DNA of 20,352 bases from a virus (lineage: Duplodnaviria > Heunggongvirae > Uroviricota > Caudoviricetes), in IMG/VR virus record IMGVR_UViG_2534681705_000008. The stretch is one strand, 5' to 3'. Below are positions 10,362-15,659 of the stretch, piece after piece (the stretch's first letter is position 1; each line of letters starts with the position of its first letter). The position numbers were made by a program, and so were the translations under genes. The notes under the pieces were generated by a model. The model searched no databases and was not told where the DNA came from. It saw nothing but the letters and a program-made list of their open reading frames with translations.

Positions 10362-12128
10362 ATGAACACCACACTGACACCCGCAGATCTCGATCCCCGT
10401 CGGCAGGCCATGCTGCTGTACTTTCAGGGATACCGCGTAGCCCGCATTGCTGAAATGCTGGGCGAGAAAGTTGCAACCGTTCACAGCTGGAAGAAACGCG
10501 ACAAGTGGGGTGACTATGGGCCGCTGGATCAGATGCAGCTCACCACCGCCGCACGTTACTGCCAGCTCATTATGAAGGAGCACAAAGAAGGGAAAGATTT
10601 CAAAGAAATTGACCTGCTGGCGCGCCAGTCGGAGCGCCACGCGCGGATCGGCAAGTTTAACAATGGCGGCAACGAAGCCGACTTAAACCCTAACGTCGCC
10701 AACCGCAACAAAGGCCCGCGCCGTCAGCCGGAAAAGAATGTTTTCACCGATGAACAGATAGAGAAACTGGAAGAAATCTTCCATTCCTCCATGTTCAACT
10801 ACCAGCGCCACTGGTGGGAAGCCGGAAAAACCAACCGCATCCGCAACCTGCTGAAGTCACGCCAGATCGGCGCGACCTTTTACTTTGCCCGTGAAGCCCT
10901 GATTGACGCCCTGCTTACCGGACGTAACCAGATTTTCCTTTCTGCCAGTAAGGCACAGGCTCACGTCTTTAAGCAGTACATCATCGACTTCGCCAAAGAA
11001 GTCGAGGTGGAGCTGAAAGGCGATCCGATGGTGCTTCCTAACGGGGCCACGCTTTACTTCCTCGGCACCAATGCCCGCACGGCGCAGAGTTACCACGGCA
11101 ACCTGTATCTGGATGAATATTTCTGGATACCGAAATTCCAGGAGTTGCGCAAAGTGGCTTCCGGTATGGCTATTCACAAGAAATGGCGACAAACCTATTT
11201 TTCCACGCCATCCAGCCTGACCCACAGTGCTTATCCGTTCTGGTCCGGTGCGCTGTTCAACCGTGGACGCAACAAAGCTGACAAGGTGGACATCGACCTG
11301 TCCCACAGCAATCTGGCCCCCGGCCTACTGTGCGCAGACGGGCAATACCGCCAGATAGTCACCGTGGAAGATGCGGTGCGCGGCGGCTGTAACCTGTTCG
11401 ACCTCGACCAGCTGCGCATGGAGTACAGCCCGGACGAATACCAGAACCTGCTGATGTGCGAGTTCGTGGACGATCTCGCGTCCGTGTTCCCGCTCAGCGA
11501 ACTGCAGGCGTGCATGGTGGACAGCTGGGAAGTCTGGACCGACTTTCATGCACTGGCCCTGCGCCCGTTTGGCTGGCGCGAAGTGTGGATCGGTTATGAC
11601 CCGGCAAAAGGTACGCAGAACGGCGACAGTGCCGGATGCGTGGTGGTGGCTCCGCCAGCCGTGCCGGGTGGTAAGTTCCGCATTCTTGAGCGTCACCAGT
11701 GGCGCGGGATGGACTTCCGCGCCCAGGCTGACGCCATCAAAAAACTGACCGAACAGTATAACGTGACCTATATCGGTATCGACTCGACCGGCGTCGGTCA
11801 CGGGGTTTACGAGAACGTGAAAGCGTTTTTTCCTGCCGTCAGGGAGTTTGTCTATAACCCCAACGTTAAAAACGCCCTGGTACTCAAGGCCTACGACATT
11901 ATCAGCCACCGCCGTCTGGAGTTTGACGCCGGGCACACCGACATTGCGCAGTCATTTATGGCAATCCGTCGCGCTACCACTGCCAGTGGCAACCGCCCGA
12001 CCTATGAAGCCAGCCGCAGCGAAGAAGCCAGCCATGCCGATCTGGCCTGGGCAACAATGCACGCACTGTTTAACGAACCGCTGCAGGGCGAGTCCGCCAA
12101 TACCAGCAATATTGTGGAGATTTTTTGA
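10362..12128 (+). CDS. P: Terminase ATPase (large) subunit gpP
   Basis: 588 aa; P2 gpP-like; ATG at 10362; stop overlaps the Q start (TGATG). Confidence 0.95.
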   Translation: MNTTLTPADLDPRRQAMLLYFQGYRVARIAEMLGEKVATVHSWKKRDKWGDYGPLDQMQLTTAARYCQLIMKEHKEGKDFKEIDLLARQSERHARIGKFNNGGNEADLNPNVANRNKGPRRQPEKNVFTDEQIEKLEEIFHSSMFNYQRHWWEAGKTNRIRNLLKSRQIGATFYFAREALIDALLTGRNQIFLSASKAQAHVFKQYIIDFAKEVEVELKGDPMVLPNGATLYFLGTNARTAQSYHGNLYLDEYFWIPKFQELRKVASGMAIHKKWRQTYFSTPSSLTHSAYPFWSGALFNRGRNKADKVDIDLSHSNLAPGLLCADGQYRQIVTVEDAVRGGCNLFDLDQLRMEYSPDEYQNLLMCEFVDDLASVFPLSELQACMVDSWEVWTDFHALALRPFGWREVWIGYDPAKGTQNGDSAGCVVVAPPAVPGGKFRILERHQWRGMDFRAQADAIKKLTEQYNVTYIGIDSTGVGHGVYENVKAFFPAVREFVYNPNVKNALVLKAYDIISHRRLEFDAGHTDIAQSFMAIRRATTASGNRPTYEASRSEEASHADLAWATMHALFNEPLQGESANTSNIVEIF

Positions 12129-13165
12129 TGGGAAAGAGTAAGAAGAACCGCGCTGCGTCGACGAAACAGATCCAGCATAAAAGCCAGACTTCAGCCGAAG
12201 CATTCAGCTTCGGTGATCCCGTTCCTGTTCTGGACCGCCGCGAACTGCTGGACTATGTGGAATGCGTACAGATGGATCGTTGGTACGAGCCGCCTGTGAG
12301 TTTCGACGGACTGGCGCGAACCTTCCGCGCCGCCGTGCATCACAGCTCACCGATTGCAGTGAAGTGCAACATTCTGACCAGCACCTACATCCCTCACCCG
12401 CTGCTCAGCCAGCAGGCTTTTTCGCGTTTTGTACAGGACTATCTGGTTTTTGGTAACGCCTACCTGGAGAAACGCACGAACCGCTTCGGTGAAGTTATCG
12501 CCCTTGAGCCTGCACTGGCAAAATACACCCGACGCGGGTTAGACCTTGATACCTACTGGTTTGTGCAATACGGCATGACTACACAGCCGTATCAGTTCAC
12601 GAAAGGCAACATTTTTCATCTGATGGAACCGGACATCAACCAGGAGATCTACGGCCTGCCTGGTTATCTTTCTGCCATTCCGTCAGCCCTGCTCAACGAG
12701 TCCGCCACGCTGTTCCGTCGAAAGTATTACATTAACGGCAGTCATGCAGGCTTCATCATGTACATGACCGACGCCGCGCAGAACCAGGAGGATGTAAACA
12801 ACCTCCGTAACGCGATGAAAAGCGCCAAAGGACCAGGTAACTTCCGCAATCTGTTTATGTACTCGCCTAACGGCAAAAAGGACGGACTTCAGATCATCCC
12901 ATTGTCAGAAGTCGCGGCGAAGGATGAGTTTCTGAATATCAAAAATGTCAGCCGCGATGACATGATGGCAGCGCACCGTGTGCCACCGCAAATGATGGGG
13001 ATTATGCCGAATAATGTTGGGGGGTTTGGGGATGTGGAGAAGGCAAGCCGTGTATTCGTCCGAAATGAGCTAATGCCACTACAAAAGCGATTACAGGAGA
13101 TGAATGATTGGCTTGGCAAGGAGGCGATACGGTTTGATACCTACTCGCTAGATATAGCCCCATAA
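12128..13165 (+). CDS. Q: Portal vertex protein gpQ
   Basis: The track start at 12125 is TTG; the ATG at 12128 gives 345 aa (MGKSKKNRA...); P2 gpQ-like. Confidence 0.95.
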   Translation: MGKSKKNRAASTKQIQHKSQTSAEAFSFGDPVPVLDRRELLDYVECVQMDRWYEPPVSFDGLARTFRAAVHHSSPIAVKCNILTSTYIPHPLLSQQAFSRFVQDYLVFGNAYLEKRTNRFGEVIALEPALAKYTRRGLDLDTYWFVQYGMTTQPYQFTKGNIFHLMEPDINQEIYGLPGYLSAIPSALLNESATLFRRKYYINGSHAGFIMYMTDAAQNQEDVNNLRNAMKSAKGPGNFRNLFMYSPNGKKDGLQIIPLSEVAAKDEFLNIKNVSRDDMMAAHRVPPQMMGIMPNNVGGFGDVEKASRVFVRNELMPLQKRLQEMNDWLGKEAIRFDTYSLDIAP

Positions 13166-13169
13166 TAAG

Positions 13170-13193
13170 AAAAGCCACCGTTTGGTGGCTTTT
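13170..13193. terminator. Bidirectional intrinsic terminator hairpin between convergent Q and the HipS-HIRAN gene
   Basis: Perfect 10-bp inverted repeat AAAAGCCACC-gttt-GGTGGCTTTT, with A-run and T-run flanks usable on either strand. Confidence 0.6.
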
Positions 13194-13199
13194 CTTCAT

Positions 13200-13940
13200 T
13201 TACTCAATAGGTTCAAACTCATCTTGAGGAATCAGCGTCGATTGACAGGCTTGGCTTAGTACCCCTGATAATTTACATAATAACCGATAGTTATGAGGAG
13301 CATCATCGCTAATCTTTTCGACCGTTAAAGTGATTGATTTTGGATCATCCAATAACATCTTCTTGATGTCATTACTTAAATACCTAGGGCAGTAACCAAC
13401 GATTTCAGCTGGTTTATCTGCACGAACGACAACAGCATCCCCATCGTATTCATTTTGAAGATCCAAGCAAAGACGCAAAATTTGCCCCGGTTTCAATTCA
13501 GATACACGAGCATTAGCTAAGCTATTCAAGTAACCAAGTCCATGTAAGAAGAAAAAATGCTCAAAGTTACCATCAGAATCAAAATCAATTTTTTTGAAAA
13601 TCTGCAGCTGATCAGTGCTTCGTAAGCCTCCCGAGCGAGCAAGAATATCGATAGGATTTACCTTATCTTCTTCAAATCCAAGCCATTTAATGAAACTCGG
13701 ATACTCTGGACGTCTCGGTGATAAAAGGCGATTTTTAAAAAGAGGAAACAATTCTTCCGATACATAAGTTTCACGAACATCACTCATGCCGCTAAACTTT
13801 GTAAATTTAGAAGATTTAAGAGCACCTTTGGTATACCTGAAAACATACCCCGATTTGCGCTCTTGCAAGTTACCAACAACATGCCAGTCTCTGGTATCTG
13901 GTGCCTGCCATGCGACGTAAACGGAGTTTGTATTAGTCAT
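13200..13940 (-). CDS. HipS-like (HipA N-subdomain-like) domain fused to a C-terminal HIRAN domain; putative antitoxin/sensor partner of the adjacent kinase
   Basis: 246 aa. N-terminal ~115 aa resemble the HipA N-terminal/HipS fold (VGNLQERKSGYVFRY..., ELFPLFKNRLLSP..., IDILARSGG). C-terminal ~90 aa carry HIRAN-like motifs (LHGLGYLNS; LQNEYDGDAVVV resembling NPYDxNAIxV; IVGYCPRYLSNDIKKML). ATG at 13940 overlaps the kinase stop (ATGA). Confidence 0.6.
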   Translation of the reverse strand: MTNTNSVYVAWQAPDTRDWHVVGNLQERKSGYVFRYTKGALKSSKFTKFSGMSDVRETYVSEELFPLFKNRLLSPRRPEYPSFIKWLGFEEDKVNPIDILARSGGLRSTDQLQIFKKIDFDSDGNFEHFFFLHGLGYLNSLANARVSELKPGQILRLCLDLQNEYDGDAVVVRADKPAEIVGYCPRYLSNDIKKMLLDDPKSITLTVEKISDDAPHNYRLLCKLSGVLSQACQSTLIPQDEFEPIE

Positions 13941-14851
13941 TCTAGTAACCTTCTGCGATTTTCCATTACCATTAACGTTGCAAATCTACGTGCACTGTCG
14001 GATATACACGATGAAGGCACTTGGTTAAACACATCTGTAATGGAATCTTCTGTTAAAACGCTCAACTTACCTAACCAATGGTCGCGAGCGGCAACTCTCC
14101 CTTCAACTGCATGTTGAAATGCTTCAACAGTCAGCAAGGGCTTTTTATCAGTTTTTGCTTTGAATAGCTCAGAGCGAGCTTTTCTTACAAAACATGGGAT
14201 TTGTCGATTTTTATCTTTAGTATTAAGCCGTTCGTTACGCTCATCATCTAACATCTCCCTTCCTAAACTAGCGGCATGATCGTATGTTGGACACAAAAAC
14301 TGCTCACCAGTTTCATTGTTAAGCATGATTGCCCAATTTTCATGGTGGCGATCTTGATTACTCACAAGTGCATCGAGCATCAAATATCCACAAAATACAT
14401 CTGCTGCATTTAGCCCGGTTAGATCATATACACTCGGAGGAGGCTTGATAGATTCCCTATCTAAACAACCCAAGACCCTTGTGACAGTGTGTTCTCTGAC
14501 CCTTACCGGCTTTTCCCCGGCTTGTAAAGGCCCAGGATAATCGAATGTCGAACTGTGAAGCACTTCATTTCCCATTACCATCCGGAAACCAGATGGAATG
14601 ATATTCTGAGTCACCACACCGAATCGACCATTGTATCGCGCCAAATCATAGCTAGCATGTGGAATGTTAAGCAAATGACATAACTCAGCAGCACACTTTT
14701 CAGACCAATGCTCGCCAGTACCTGGCCTAGAGTACTTAAACAACTGCAAATTTACAGTGTCATCGGAGAAATAGAACCAAAACTTCTCTTTGGTTCCTAA
14801 CTGTTCAAGATCGTTAGCTACGGGGCTAAGCTCTACCAATTGGTATGGCAT
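13937..14851 (-). CDS. HipT/HipA-like Ser/Thr kinase core (HipA_C superfamily), lacking the HipA N-terminal subdomain
   Basis: 304 aa. Gly-rich loop GTKEKF (res 19-24, resembling the HipA/HipT GxQxK loop), catalytic motif SNQDRHHENW (res 164-173, resembling GxxDxHxKN), and Mg-binding-type YD in CPTYDHAASLG (res 190-191). ATG at 14851 confirmed. Confidence 0.7.
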   Translation of the reverse strand: MPYQLVELSPVANDLEQLGTKEKFWFYFSDDTVNLQLFKYSRPGTGEHWSEKCAAELCHLLNIPHASYDLARYNGRFGVVTQNIIPSGFRMVMGNEVLHSSTFDYPGPLQAGEKPVRVREHTVTRVLGCLDRESIKPPPSVYDLTGLNAADVFCGYLMLDALVSNQDRHHENWAIMLNNETGEQFLCPTYDHAASLGREMLDDERNERLNTKDKNRQIPCFVRKARSELFKAKTDKKPLLTVEAFQHAVEGRVAARDHWLGKLSVLTEDSITDVFNQVPSSCISDSARRFATLMVMENRRRLLE

Positions 14852-14944
14852 CTGACATCCCTGTTTAGCGGATTATGAATAAGTTAGGTTCCATTTTATC
14901 CAAACATTGTCAAATACCCTAAGATTTATTAGATGATAGAGCGA

Positions 14945-14964
14945 TACTGTATGTATGTCCAGCA
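14945..14964. promoter_or_regulatory. LexA-box-like sequence (TACTGTATGTATGTCCAGCA; CTG-N10-CAG spacing retained) about 95 bp upstream of the kinase operon
   Basis: About 16/20 match to the E. coli SOS-box consensus TACTGTATATATATACAGTA, with CTG and CAG correctly spaced; right half-site is CCAG rather than ACAG. Confidence 0.3.
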
Positions 14965-15003
14965 ATCAAATCAATATATAACTCTTATATGGCTTAACGC
15001 GCG

Positions 15004-15022
15004 CTCGTATCCCCGCCACGCC
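15004..15022 (-). other. Candidate cos (cohesive-end) site: GGCGTGGCGGGGA... on the minus strand
   Basis: The 13-mer GGCGTGGCGGGGA matches the start of the P2/186 19-nt cohesive end as I recall it (P2 GGCGAGGCGGGGAAAGCAC); the location between the A/tum side and Q is where cos is expected. Confidence 0.5.
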
Positions 15023-15065
15023 TGCCCGCTTTATGTAGTGGTTTTCATGCACCTGCATGATCTAC

Positions 15066-15093
15066 GCAAAAGCCCGCCAGTTCTGGCGGGCCT
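15066..15093 (-). terminator. Intrinsic terminator of the tum/DinI-like operon
   Basis: GC-rich 9-bp stem GCCCGCCAG-tt-CTGGCGGGC, followed on the minus strand by TTTT. Confidence 0.55.
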
Positions 15094-15226
15094 TAGCAAA
15101 AACGATCCTCAAACGATCATGCGATCTCATGCGGCATAGACATGCACTACAGAGCTAACGCCTCGCAAGGGCTCGTTGTTCAACCTTGCTGACGCCAGAA
15201 GCAAGTTCAGACGCCAGCAACGTTTC

Positions 15227-15460
15227 TTAATGCAGCCAGCTGTCGTCTTCCCACACCTTCTGCATAATTTTCATCACTTGTTTTCTTTCTTCGTCCAGTT
15301 GCAGTCCGGTTAGTTCCACACCGTTAGAGCTACCTTTGCGAATGCGAATTACCGTTTTGGGATACAGGGGGCGCAGATTGCGGTAAAGCTCGGATTCAAG
15401 GGCGTCCAGGGTAGACTGGCTAATCTTCTGCTCTTTATCGATCATTATTTCAATGCGCAT
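15227..15460 (-). CDS. DinI-family protein (SOS-inducible; 186 Tum C-terminal-domain-like)
   Basis: 77 aa from the ATG at 15460 (MRIEIMIDKEQ...KVWEDDSWLH), similar to E. coli DinI; SD GAGGTG upstream; the track ORF is extended to 15532. Confidence 0.8.
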   Translation of the reverse strand: MRIEIMIDKEQKISQSTLDALESELYRNLRPLYPKTVIRIRKGSSNGVELTGLQLDEERKQVMKIMQKVWEDDSWLH

Positions 15461-15470
15461 AAAAGTCACC

Positions 15471-15659
15471 TCAGCTGATGACATCCATTGAGCGGTTGTA
15501 TTCGTGGGTTCTGATTTTTGCCATGAGTTCATCAGTCAATTCAGAAACCCACTGCAGAGCCAGCCCCTTCTCTTCATCACTACACTCACTAGCCGCTACA
15601 AGCTTAAGAAAAAAATCAATGCGCTGGAGCTTCAAAGACTCCAAAAAATAGTCCTGCAT
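15471..15659 (-). CDS. Small protein, first gene of the SOS operon (possible Tum-like antirepressor N-terminal module)
   Basis: 62 aa from the ATG at 15659 with GGAGG upstream; the longer track ORF (to 15761) would run through the LexA box and promoter and is unlikely. Confidence 0.45.
   Translation of the reverse strand: MQDYFLESLKLQRIDFFLKLVAASECSDEEKGLALQWVSELTDELMAKIRTHEYNRSMDVIS

What the first reader, a model, noticed from the sequence alone, without database searches (positions are those of the whole stretch)
13166..15022. Cargo sits on the Q side of cos, not the A side
Reading the minus strand, the order is A, then the LexA-controlled tum/DinI-like operon, a terminator, the cos-like sequence (15004..15022), a roughly 150-bp promoter region, the kinase operon, a hairpin, and the end of Q. 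In P2 as I recall it, cos lies within about 100 bp of the Q 3' end and the accessory genes old/tin lie on the other side of cos. Here about 1.85 kb of foreign-looking DNA is between cos and Q, so it would sit at the extreme left end of the packaged linear genome.
Basis: partly seen in the sequence, partly recalled or inferred. Interest (0 to 1): 0.6.

Follow-up and report, generated by a model that had tools for sequence, protein, structure and literature searches.

The report
Defence cassette between cos and portal gene
In this E. coli P2-like prophage a foreign two-gene kinase/HIRAN cassette really does lie between the packaging site (cos) and the portal gene, but this is the usual, already described cargo slot of this phage lineage rather than an oddity.

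Summary
The only cos sequence in the window (15004-15022, minus strand, GGCGTGGCGGGGATACGAG) aligns with the mapped cos sites of 186 and P2. It lies 1,838 bp from the stop codon of portal gene Q, against 167 bp in P2 and 176 bp in 186. The DNA in between is AT-rich (41% GC against 52% in Q). It encodes a HipA-family kinase and a HipS-like + HIRAN protein, matching the hipIN-type module and PADLOC candidate PDC-M03.

It is not unusual. Among 75 close relatives (Q at least 93% identical), 64 carry more than 700 bp between Q and cos, in 45 unrelated cargo types. Only 2 have the P2-like spacing. In the P2 lineage the pattern is reversed: 77 of 79 have 156-170 bp. Fels-2, RE-2010, Cartapus and phiCTX (cos-ctx-Q) have the same layout. 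The literature has called this position a hotspot since Dodd & Egan 1996 and Nakayama 1999. Rousset et al. 2022 list this exact protein pair in their P2 gpA-gpQ hotspot table.

New detail found here:
- Homology ends 6-7 bp past cos.
- The last ~40 codons of Q travel with each cassette.
- All Q-side cargo reads from cos towards Q.
- The cassette carries a conserved LexA-like box.

Verdict: real, already known, low interest.

The parts
12125..13165 (+). Portal gene Q (346 aa). Its last ~40 codons (about 13045-13165) are part of the variable module.
   Evidence: Pfam Phage_portal 1.1e-19. RefSeq annotates it as 'phage portal protein'. Among relatives the amino-acid sequence is invariant up to about codon 307 and divergent after that. 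The tail variant is linked to cargo type: same cargo gives the same tail in 48 of 50 pairs, and different cargo gives the same tail in 0 of 2,800 pairs.
13167..13196 (.). Bidirectional terminator-like hairpin between the converging Q and hipN-like genes.
   Evidence: 13-bp stem, -20.4 kcal/mol (+) and -21.0 kcal/mol (-), z -7.35 and -7.93, followed by a T run on both strands. Most other cassettes carry a different hairpin-forming GC-rich inverted repeat just downstream of the Q stop, judged by eye from the sequences.
13200..13940 (-). HipN-like protein (246 aa): N-terminal HipS-like domain plus C-terminal HIRAN domain.
   Evidence: Pfam HIRAN 1e-13 at residues 127-228. PADLOC PDC-M03B 6.8e-93. 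The AF2 model (pLDDT 89.2) matches HLTF HIRAN and 3k2y at about 1e-5, and also HipS of HipBST (7ab3_E/B, TMt 0.69-0.70) and the HipA N-domain.
13937..14851 (-). HipI-like short HipA-family Ser/Thr kinase (304 aa). Its stop overlaps the hipN-like start.
   Evidence: PADLOC PDC-M03A 2.1e-122. Pfam HipA_C is weak, 3.6e-4, below the cutoff. The AF2 model (pLDDT 84.7) matches CtkA at 1.4e-10, plus HipA and HipT. Invariant LGTKEKFWF and NQDRHHENW motifs. RefSeq annotates it as 'HipA domain-containing protein'.
14852..14996 (-). Cassette's own promoter/leader region. Predicted -35 at 14956-14961 and -10 at 14933-14938, with a LexA-like box at 14945-14964.
   Evidence: TGGACA-17-TATCAT, 10 of 12. The box TGCTGGACATACATACAGTA matches the LexA consensus at 16 of 20. 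It is one of only two sites at 15 of 20 or better in the 20.3-kb window. It is conserved at -99 to -125 in diverged enterobacterial copies of the cassette. The region is 99% identical in the 4 other loci with the same cassette.
14997..15003 (-). Conserved CGCGCG(C/T) immediately on the Q side of cos. Homology among relatives ends here.
   Evidence: Column conservation is 0.96-1.00 through cos+5 and 0.97, 0.81 and 0.61 at cos+6 to +8. It then falls to about 0.35-0.55. All phage-database matches end at window 14998.
15004..15022 (-). cos cohesive-end sequence, GGCGTGGCGGGGATACGAG.
   Evidence: It aligns with 186 cos GGCGTGGCGGGGAAAGCAT and P2 cos GGCGAGGCGGGGAAAGCAC, with the flanks conserved. 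It is unique in the window. It is present once, in the same place, in 75 of 80 related loci.
15023..15147 (.). A-side part of the conserved cos island (~125 bp). It includes the hairpin at 15068-15094 and the GCATGATC/GATCATGC and AAACGATC repeats.
   Evidence: Conservation is about 0.9-1.0 up to about 15147, then random. Repeats are and the hairpin. In the P2 lineage only ~35 bp are conserved on this side.
15227..15466 (-). DinI-like gene (homologue of the C-terminal half of 186 Tum).
   Evidence: Pfam DinI 1.3e-22. 41% identity to Tum residues 71-145. RefSeq WP_001217575.1.
15471..15659 (-). 62-aa ORF, the first gene of the LexA-controlled operon.
   Evidence: RefSeq annotates it as a hypothetical protein, WP_001154431.1. 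It has no similarity to the N-terminus of 186 Tum. A homologous 189-bp gene is annotated in RE-2010 and Fels-2.
15701..15720 (.). LexA box of the small-ORF/DinI operon.
   Evidence: CACTGTTTATATTTACAGTA, 17 of 20 to the consensus. It contains CTGT-N8-ACAG.
15813..18236 (-). Replication gene A.
   Evidence: Pfam Phage_GPA 4.7e-128. RefSeq annotates it as 'replication endonuclease'.

Best explanation
The interval is the Q-side (left-end) cargo slot of the cos-flanking accessory-gene hotspot of P2-like phages. Here it is occupied by a hipIN-type kinase/HIRAN module (PADLOC candidate PDC-M03).

Anatomy. A conserved cos island of about 151 bp (window 14997-15147) separates two independently variable slots. 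The island consists of 7 bp on the Q side, the 19-nt cohesive-end sequence, and about 125 bp on the A side. The Q-side slot runs from 7 bp past cos to within the last ~40 codons of Q.

Why insertion is tolerated. In this lineage nothing beyond cos+7 is conserved. Terminase recognition must therefore rest on the island, and anything can be placed next to cos on the Q side (inference).

How the cassette is organised. It brings its own promoter, which fires away from cos, and its own bidirectional terminator, which also ends the P-Q late operon. It therefore disturbs no phage transcription unit.

How cassettes are exchanged. They appear to be swapped as whole units by homologous recombination between the conserved body of Q and the cos island (inferred from linkage of the Q 3' tail to the cargo). 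After cos cleavage the cassette would be the first ~1.8 kb of the virion genome's left end (inferred).

What the module probably does. The cassette itself most likely acts as a toxin/antitoxin-like abortive-infection module.
- The HipI-like kinase would be held inactive by the HipS-like domain of the HipN-like partner.
- The HIRAN domain would sense free DNA ends.
- Expression would be under LexA control.
All of these steps are inferred. None was shown here.
For: cos identity and uniqueness.

Spacing survey:
- Window lineage, n=75: 159-3,497 bp, median 1,555; 64 loci above 700 bp; only 2 at or below 300 bp.
- P2 lineage: 77 of 79 loci at 156-170 bp.
- 186 lineage: 61 of 79 at or below 220 bp, 10 at 221-700 bp, 8 above 700 bp.

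Boundaries: a sharp right boundary at cos+7, the island's A-side boundary at about 15147, and a left boundary inside Q.

Cargo content and behaviour:
- 45 cargo DNA clusters, each with its own Q tail.
- Cargo families are typical defence genes: AIPR/AbiU, retron reverse transcriptases, TIR, PIN, GmrSD, Cap4 nuclease, SieB, DprA, Schlafen.
- All 85 Q-side cargo ORFs in 56 distinct cargos read from cos towards Q.
- Q-side cargo averages 36% GC against 52% for Q.
- The same cassette occurs with different A-side contents (cos-to-A-stop 792, 1,516 and 2,337 bp).

Deposited phage genomes with the same layout: phiCTX (cosL 1-21, ctx promoter, ctx 362-1222, terminators, Q), Fels-2, Cartapus and RE-2010.

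Literature:
- Retron Ec67 lies between cos and the packaging gene (PMC7826664).
- The gpA-gpQ hotspot is adjacent to cos (PMC9122126).
- The window's own proteins, WP_001146828 and WP_000185756, are listed together in that paper's hotspot table.

Cargo identity: and the hipIN description in PMC8262856.
Against: - cos ends have not been physically mapped in this prophage or its closest relatives. The 3' third of the 19-mer differs from P2 and 186, so the exact nick on the Q side could be off by a few bases.
- Each survey took the 80 IMG/VR contigs most similar to its query, so it is not an unbiased sample.
- cos was located with a sequence motif.
- The conservation profiles are ungapped.
- Promoter and terminator calls are consensus or energy based.
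- No experiment shows that PDC-M03/hipIN protects against phage, that the kinase is toxic, or that LexA binds the box.
- I did not find the module among the experimentally validated systems in the papers searched.
Confidence: 0.88

Rival explanations
1. The arrangement is a one-off, recent insertion or rearrangement peculiar to this prophage. It would be a genuine departure from P2-like genome organisation, and cos would normally abut Q.
For: P2, 186, PSP3 and Wphi all have Q within about 170-180 bp of cos or of the record start. 77 of 79 P2-lineage loci do too.
Against: In the window's own lineage 64 of 75 loci have more than 700 bp at this position, in 45 different cargo types. 21 complete E. 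coli genomes carry this very arrangement. A diverged Serratia P2-like prophage carries the same cassette in the same slot. phiCTX, Fels-2, Cartapus and RE-2010 share the layout. It is described in the literature.
Confidence: 0.02
2. The 15004-15022 sequence is a relic or look-alike, and the functional cos lies elsewhere. Alternatively the prophage is defective, so the cargo is not at a virion genome end.
For: No physical end mapping exists for this prophage. Six of the last seven bases of the 19-mer differ from 186.
Against: There is a single match in the window and none in shuffles. The flanks are conserved with mapped P2 and 186 cos sites. The 19-mer plus flank is essentially invariant across 72 distinct related sequences, while the DNA 8 bp further on is unrelated. 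This pattern indicates strong selection. The packaging, capsid and replication genes nearby are intact. The phage Cartapus record starts at the homologous site, which is annotated as a putative cos.
Confidence: 0.04
3. The two genes are not an anti-phage system. They would be a plain toxin-antitoxin/addiction or DNA-damage-response module that stabilises the prophage or modulates host physiology during the SOS response.
For: The module has HipA-family kinase plus HipS-like architecture, as in HipBST-type TA systems (PMC8262856). A conserved LexA-like box lies upstream of the kinase in enterobacterial copies. The module also sits at ordinary chromosomal sites, between asd and gyrB in Proteus and between housekeeping genes in V. 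cholerae. No experimental defence phenotype was found in the literature searched.
Against: It occupies a slot that in relatives holds recognised defence genes. It also occurs as a moron in a different Yersinia prophage. It is a PADLOC defence candidate. Gerdes et al. themselves propose abortive infection. TA function and abortive-infection defence are not mutually exclusive.
Confidence: 0.25
4. The interval is a conserved, lineage-specific phage function (for example a packaging or injection accessory) rather than exchangeable cargo.
For: It sits right next to cos, and HIRAN domains bind DNA ends, as stated in PMC8262856.
Against: Only 4 of the 75 surveyed relatives with a detectable cos carry it (a fifth carrier contig ends before cos); the rest have unrelated genes or almost nothing at this position. 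Its GC content is 41% against 52% for Q. It is found outside phages.
Confidence: 0.02

Closest known systems
phiCTX cos-ctx-Q region (Pseudomonas P2-like phage, NC_003278)
   Same: A foreign gene lies directly after the left cohesive end. It has its own promoter reading towards Q, followed by terminators and then the convergent portal gene. The cohesive ends are annotated in the record.
   Different: The cargo is a pore-forming cytotoxin rather than a kinase/HIRAN pair. The cos is 21 nt, in a different genus. About 260 bp of repeat-containing cos region precedes the promoter there, against about 40 bp between cos and the -35 here.
Retrons Ec67 and Ec86 in a 186-related prophage (Dodd & Egan 1996, known here only through citing papers)
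   Same: Foreign DNA replaces the sequence between cos and the transcription terminator or packaging gene of a P2/186-like prophage (title and statement quoted). Retron reverse transcriptases are among the Q-side cargos of the relatives surveyed here.
   Different: Different cargo. The original paper could not be read, so junction positions could not be compared base by base.
P2 gpA-gpQ defence hotspot (Rousset et al. 2022, PMC9122126)
   Same: It is the same locus, next to cos, with high diversity and defence content. The window's kinase and HIRAN proteins are listed together in their hotspot table.
   Different: In the passages I read, the paper treats the gpA-gpQ interval as one hotspot and does not separate the two sides of cos. 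Here the interval resolves into two slots split by a ~151-bp cos island, with lineage-specific use.
P2 old/tin (TO region)
   Same: Accessory anti-phage genes lie next to cos, with their own promoter close to cos and transcribed away from it.
   Different: They lie on the A (right-end) side. In the P2 lineage the Q side is almost never used.
Fels-2 (NC_010463), RE-2010 and Cartapus
   Same: These are the same lineage or neighbouring genera, with the same cos island and one or more genes between cos and Q reading towards Q.
   Different: Different cargo: a 565-aa hypothetical protein, an AIPR protein and a DUF4145 protein respectively. Fels-2 also has A-side cargo.
hipIN modules (Gerdes, Baerentsen & Brodersen 2021, PMC8262856) / PADLOC PDC-M03
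   Same: A short HipA-family kinase is followed by a protein with a HipS-like domain plus a HIRAN domain. The proposed role is DNA-end-triggered abortive infection.
   Different: Clade membership was not tested by phylogeny. The LexA-like box seen here is not mentioned in that paper.

Membership tests
P2/186-type cos site | 19-nt cohesive-end sequence homologous to the mapped P2 and 186 ends | tested here: met
   13 of 19 bases identical to 186 (the first 13 are contiguous) and 12 of 19 to P2. The adjacent (T/C)GCGCG is conserved.
P2/186-type cos site | Conserved core flanks (the '55-bp core' of Ziermann & Calendar, as cited in PMC5694545) | tested here: met
   About 35-40 bp on the A side are shared with P2 and 186. 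The core that is never interrupted in either lineage is about 35+19+7 bp. The original paper was not read.
P2/186-type cos site | Position between the end of the A-side operon and the 3' end of Q | tested here: met
P2/186-type cos site | Staggered cleavage by terminase giving 19-nt 5' overhangs in virion DNA | not testable with these tools
   Needs virion DNA.
P2-like gpA-gpQ cos-adjacent defence hotspot (Rousset 2022) | Located between gpA and gpQ, next to cos | tested here: met
P2-like gpA-gpQ cos-adjacent defence hotspot (Rousset 2022) | Content varies among otherwise near-identical phages | tested here: met
   45 cargo DNA clusters in 76 loci whose Q is at least 93% identical.
P2-like gpA-gpQ cos-adjacent defence hotspot (Rousset 2022) | Holds known or candidate anti-phage systems | tested here: met
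   PDC-M03 in the window. AbiU/AIPR, retrons, TIR, GmrSD, Cap4 nuclease, SieB and DprA in relatives. The exact protein pair is listed in the paper's table.
P2-like gpA-gpQ cos-adjacent defence hotspot (Rousset 2022) | Demonstrated protection against phage | not testable with these tools
   No experimental report for this cassette was found.
cos-to-Q left-end insertion slot (Dodd & Egan 1996; phiCTX ctx) | Foreign DNA between cos and the terminator at the 3' end of Q | tested here: met
cos-to-Q left-end insertion slot (Dodd & Egan 1996; phiCTX ctx) | Own promoter, transcribed from cos towards Q | tested here: inconclusive
   The gene orientation is met (85 of 85 ORFs). The promoter is only a consensus match.
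hipIN module (HipI kinase + HipN) | Short (279-321 aa) HipA-family kinase lacking N-subdomain 1, with the Gly-rich loop near the N-terminus | tested here: met
   304 aa. The invariant LGTKEKFWF motif lies at residues 18-26. The fold matches CtkA, HipA and HipT. The Pfam HipA_C match is below the cutoff.
hipIN module (HipI kinase + HipN) | Downstream gene encoding a HipS-like N-domain plus a C-terminal HIRAN domain | tested here: met
   Pfam HIRAN. The model matches both HIRAN structures and HipS (7ab3). The genes overlap.
hipIN module (HipI kinase + HipN) | Placement in the HipI subclade of clade XI by phylogeny | not tested
   Reference sequences from the paper were not retrieved. The distribution in Proteobacteria and Cyanobacteria agrees with the subclade described.
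hipIN module (HipI kinase + HipN) | Kinase toxicity neutralised by the partner protein | not testable with these tools
   Experimental.
PADLOC PDC-M03 | Adjacent genes matching both the PDC-M03A and PDC-M03B profiles | tested here: met
   2.1e-122 and 6.8e-93, both full length.
186 Tum (LexA-controlled antirepressor) | Single protein with an antirepressor N-terminal part fused to a DinI-like C-terminal part | tested here: not met
   There are two separate genes here. The DinI-like gene matches Tum residues 71-145. The 62-aa ORF shows no similarity to the Tum N-terminus.
186 Tum (LexA-controlled antirepressor) | LexA box at the operon promoter | tested here: met
   17 of 20 match at 15701-15720.

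The most novel reading that the evidence does not exclude
The cos-Q slot may be a defined exchange unit rather than a passive gap. Three observations point this way.
- Each of the 45 cassettes carries its own version of the portal protein's last ~40 residues.
- Each cassette begins within 7-8 bp of the cos cut.
- All cassettes are transcribed from cos towards Q.

This could mean that terminase-generated cos ends seed cassette replacement. It could also mean that the portal C-terminus is functionally coupled to, or diversified together with, the defence cargo.

Separately, the hipIN/PDC-M03 module may be an SOS(LexA)-controlled, DNA-end-sensing kinase system. That regulatory link is absent from the paper that defined the family.
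Probability: 0.15. Interest if true: 0.55.

Novelty: already known. Interest (0 to 1): 0.2.

Why it matters
As posed, it matters little. The position is a documented cargo slot of P2-like phages, and this exact cassette is already catalogued there.

The value of the check is in sharpening the picture.
- The 'gpA-gpQ hotspot' is really two slots separated by a ~151-bp cos island.
- P2-type phages use almost only the A side. Fels-2-type phages mostly use the Q side, often together with the A side.
- The Q-side slot has base-precise limits. These could guide mining of defence systems and engineering of P2-like vectors, since cargo can be placed 7 bp from cos.

The conserved LexA-like box gives a testable handle on how the uncharacterised hipIN/PDC-M03 module is controlled.

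Tried and rejected
- Sequence search of both cargo proteins against PDB chains gave nothing significant: CtkA at E 0.43 and a YafQ toxin at E 0.84. Structure prediction plus Foldseek was needed.
- The terminator scan missed both obvious hairpins, probably because its stem rule absorbs the T run. They were confirmed by folding.
- Dodd & Egan 1996 is not held in the library, and I did not try to obtain Ziermann & Calendar 1990, so both are cited only through papers that quote them.
- I looked for an 'empty site' that would define insertion boundaries. The two relatives with ~160 bp spacers (L019, L025) share nothing with the P2, 186 or PSP3 spacers beyond cos+7, so there is no universal ancestral spacer.
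- I considered that the LexA-like box might be a property of the slot. It is not: only 1 other of 50 distinct Q-side regions has a site at 15 of 20 or better.
- I considered that the box might be general to the whole kinase family. It is not: it is absent from Vibrio, marine gammaproteobacterial and other copies. Cyanobacterial copies were not scored, because their LexA motif differs.
- An exact search for the window's box in the fetched loci found nothing, because the other copies differ by one base.
- The ORF at 14933-15139 (+), which spans cos, has no family match and is treated as spurious.
Full report
**What is in the window.**

The window is part of a P2-like (Peduoviridae, Fels-2-like) prophage. 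The tested 2,151-bp stretch (window 13000-15150) is 100% identical to an E. coli chromosome (NZ_CM151382).

On the + strand lie the large terminase P (10362-12128) and the portal Q (12125-13165). On the - strand lie the following:
- Replication gene A (15813-18236).
- A LexA box (15701-15720, 17 of 20 to the consensus).
- A 62-aa ORF (15471-15659).
- A DinI-like gene (15227-15466), 41% identical to the C-terminal half of 186 Tum.

Between the DinI-like gene and Q lie, in order:
- A hairpin (15068-15094).
- The sequence GGCGTGGCGGGGATACGAG (15004-15022, - strand).
- A ~150-bp AT-rich region with a promoter-like site.
- Two overlapping genes (13937-14851 and 13200-13940, - strand).
- A 13-bp-stem hairpin (13167-13196) that folds equally well on both strands.

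**Is it cos?**

The 19-mer is the only such sequence in the window, even allowing three mismatches, and none occurs in shuffles. It aligns with the annotated cohesive ends of 186 (GGCGTGGCGGGGAAAGCAT) and P2 (GGCGAGGCGGGGAAAGCAC). About 35-40 bp are conserved on the A side, and (T/C)GCGCG on the Q side.

In 75 of 80 related IMG/VR loci the motif occurs exactly once, between Q and A. In the other five, at least four contigs end within about 2.5 kb of the Q stop. The cut positions themselves are inferred by homology.

**The observation.**

The distance from the Q stop to cos is 1,838 bp. The corresponding distance is 167 bp in P2, with old and tin on the other side of cos. It is 176 bp in 186 and 178 bp in PSP3.

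**Is the interval cargo?**

Yes, on three grounds.
- Close relatives share the end of Q and everything from window 14998 onward, but carry other genes in between, such as AIPR/Abi.
- GC falls from 0.51-0.61 in P and Q to 0.37-0.45 in the interval.
- The same gene pair, always kinase then HIRAN protein, occurs in unrelated contexts.

Those contexts are:
- An E. coli island beside a two-partner-secretion locus.
- The V. cholerae chromosome.
- The tail region of a different Yersinia prophage.
- Between asd and gyrB in Proteus.
- The cos-Q slot of a diverged Serratia P2-like prophage.

**How unusual is the position?**

I fetched 80 loci for each of three portal queries, located cos by motif, and measured the Q-to-cos distance.

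| Lineage | Loci with cos | Q stop to cos |
|---|---|---|
| Window (Q at least 93% identical) | 75 | 159-3,497 bp, median 1,555; 64 above 700 bp; 2 at or below 300 bp |
| P2 (Q at least 99% identical) | 79 | 77 at 156-170 bp; 2 at 1,439 and 1,875 bp |
| 186 (Q 82-99% identical) | 79 | 61 at or below 220 bp; 10 at 221-700 bp; 8 above 700 bp |

In the window lineage, 19 loci have cargo on the Q side only, 7 on the A side only, 41 on both, and 2 on neither. In the P2 lineage all the variation is on the A side, where the cos-to-A distance ranges from 906 to 5,672 bp.

For this prophage's own lineage, however, Q-side cargo is the norm.

Deposited genomes agree.
- Fels-2 has a 565-aa ORF between cos and Q.
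- Cartapus has a DUF4145 gene there.
- RE-2010 has an AIPR gene there.
- phiCTX has cosL, then the ctx promoter, ctx, terminators and Q.

**Literature.**

[quoted passage not shown] 1999 (PMC5694545).
- Rousset et al. 2022 define the gpA-gpQ, cos-adjacent hotspot (PMC9122126).
- The RefSeq accessions of the window's two proteins are WP_001146828 and WP_000185756. They appear together in that paper's table of hotspot loci.

The finding is therefore already known.

(a) The right boundary is sharp. Across 72 distinct cos neighbourhoods, conservation is 0.96-1.00 through the 19-mer and the next five bases. It reads 0.97, 0.81 and 0.61 at cos+6 to +8, and is then random.

(b) The island extends further on the A side. 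Conservation there continues for about 125 bp, to about 15147, and then collapses. This defines a ~151-bp cos island between two variable slots. In the P2 lineage the picture is mirrored: about 35 bp are conserved on the A side, and everything is conserved on the Q side. The part never interrupted in either lineage is about 61 bp. This is close to the '55-bp core' attributed to Ziermann & Calendar.

(c) The left boundary lies inside Q. The protein is invariant to about codon 307. The last ~40 codons diverge while keeping a residue pattern. The tail variant is tied to the cargo. Same cargo gives the same tail in 48 of 50 pairs, and different cargo gives the same tail in 0 of 2,800 pairs. Most cassettes also carry a different hairpin-forming GC-rich inverted repeat just after the Q stop.

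(d) All 85 non-shadow ORFs in 56 distinct Q-side cargos read from cos towards Q. A-side cargo is mixed, 21 on one strand and 34 on the other.

(e) Q-side cargo averages 36% GC, against 52% for the body of Q.

(f) The window's cassette occurs with three different A-side configurations, so the two slots assort independently.

**What the cargo is.**

Both proteins match PADLOC candidate PDC-M03 over their full length (2.1e-122 and 6.8e-93).

The 304-aa protein has only a sub-threshold HipA_C match. However, it has invariant Gly-rich-loop and catalytic motifs. Its AF2 model (pLDDT 84.7) matches the HipA-like kinase CtkA at 1.4e-10, as well as HipA and HipT.

The 246-aa protein has a Pfam HIRAN domain. 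Its model (pLDDT 89.2) matches HIRAN structures. Through its N-terminal half it also matches HipS of HipBST and the HipA N-domain.

This is the hipIN organisation described by Gerdes et al. 2021. They proposed, without experiments, that the HIRAN domain senses phage DNA ends and releases the kinase to cause abortive infection (PMC8262856). I found no experimental test of this.

**Side observation.**

A LexA-like box (16 of 20 to the consensus, CTG-N10-CAG) overlaps the predicted -35 of the cassette promoter at 14945-14964. It is one of only two sites at 15 of 20 or better in the window.

Boxes of the same form lie 99-125 bp upstream of the kinase start in diverged enterobacterial copies, in quite different contexts. 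These are the E. coli island, the Serratia prophage, the Yersinia prophage (18 of 20), Proteus, an Enterobacteriaceae MAG, Pectobacterium, Buttiauxella, and a copy labelled as a Pseudoalteromonadaceae MAG (14 of 20). Shuffle p values were 0.002-0.034 where computed.

The box is absent from Vibrio, Providencia and marine gammaproteobacterial copies. Other cassettes in the same slot rarely have such a site, 1 other of 50. Gerdes et al. do not mention LexA or SOS.

**Conclusion.**

The observation and its reading as left-end cargo hold. Its novelty does not. The mechanism I commit to has three parts.
- A cos island that needs at most 7 bp on the Q side lets self-contained cassettes (promoter, genes, terminator) sit directly beside the packaging site.
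- Cassettes are exchanged by recombination between Q and the island.
- The present cassette is a hipIN/PDC-M03 kinase module, probably an SOS-controlled toxin/antitoxin-like abortive-infection system.

The layout and its variability are shown. Cleavage position, exchange mechanism, promoter activity, LexA control and defence function are inferred.

Noticed in passing
window 13045-13165 (3' end of Q); loci L006-L085: The last ~40 codons of the portal gene are hypervariable at the nucleotide level but keep a residue pattern (QKRLQELNxWLxxxVIxFxxYxL). Each variant is strictly linked to one cargo type: same cargo gives the same tail in 48 of 50 pairs, and different cargo in 0 of 2,800 pairs. The exchange unit therefore includes the portal C-terminus.
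   Followed up: partly
window 14945-14964; L249, L260, L262, L264, L265, L266, L267, L271 at about 100-125 bp upstream of the kinase gene: A LexA-like box (CTG-N10-CAG, 14-18 of 20 to the consensus) overlaps the cassette promoter. It is conserved in position across diverged enterobacterial hipIN cassettes in unrelated genomic contexts, but is absent from Vibrio and marine copies. This suggests SOS control of the module. The hipIN paper does not mention it.
   Followed up: partly
loci L006-L085 (Q-side intervals): All 85 cargo ORFs in 56 distinct Q-side cargos are transcribed from cos towards Q. A-side cargo shows both orientations (21 versus 34).
   Followed up: yes
loci L089-L168 versus L006-L085: Slot use is lineage-specific and mirrored. 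P2-lineage phages keep Q-to-cos at 156-170 bp in 77 of 79 loci and vary only on the A side, starting about 35 bp from cos. Window-lineage phages vary on the Q side from cos+8 and on the A side only beyond about 125 bp.
   Followed up: yes
window 15023-15147: The conserved A-side part of the cos island contains a strong hairpin (15068-15094), an 8-bp inverted repeat GCATGATC/GATCATGC (15055-15062 and 15115-15122), and a direct repeat AAACGATC (15100-15107 and 15111-15118). These are candidate terminase-binding elements. The hairpin is conserved even where A-side cargo follows, so it belongs to the island and is more than the DinI operon terminator.
   Followed up: no
window 15471-15659: The first gene of the LexA-controlled operon is a 62-aa ORF with no detectable similarity to the N-terminal (antirepressor) part of 186 Tum. 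The Tum-like function, if any, is split or replaced in this lineage.
   Followed up: partly
L181, L195, L205 and L211 (186-lineage), about 1.3 kb between Q and cos: L181, L195 and L205 carry a 334-aa ORF in the opposite orientation (Q towards cos); L211 has it split into two shorter ORFs over the same span. The L181 copy was scanned and has no Pfam match. These are exceptions to the orientation rule seen in the window lineage.
   Followed up: no
window 14933-15139 (+): A 68-aa ORF spans cos and the island. It has no family match and is most likely spurious.
   Followed up: partly
window about 18185-19015 (-): A DNA adenine methylase gene lies immediately upstream of A, as in Fels-2, where the record compares it to the retron Ec67 Dam. 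This is another accessory gene outside the cos-flanking slots.
   Followed up: no
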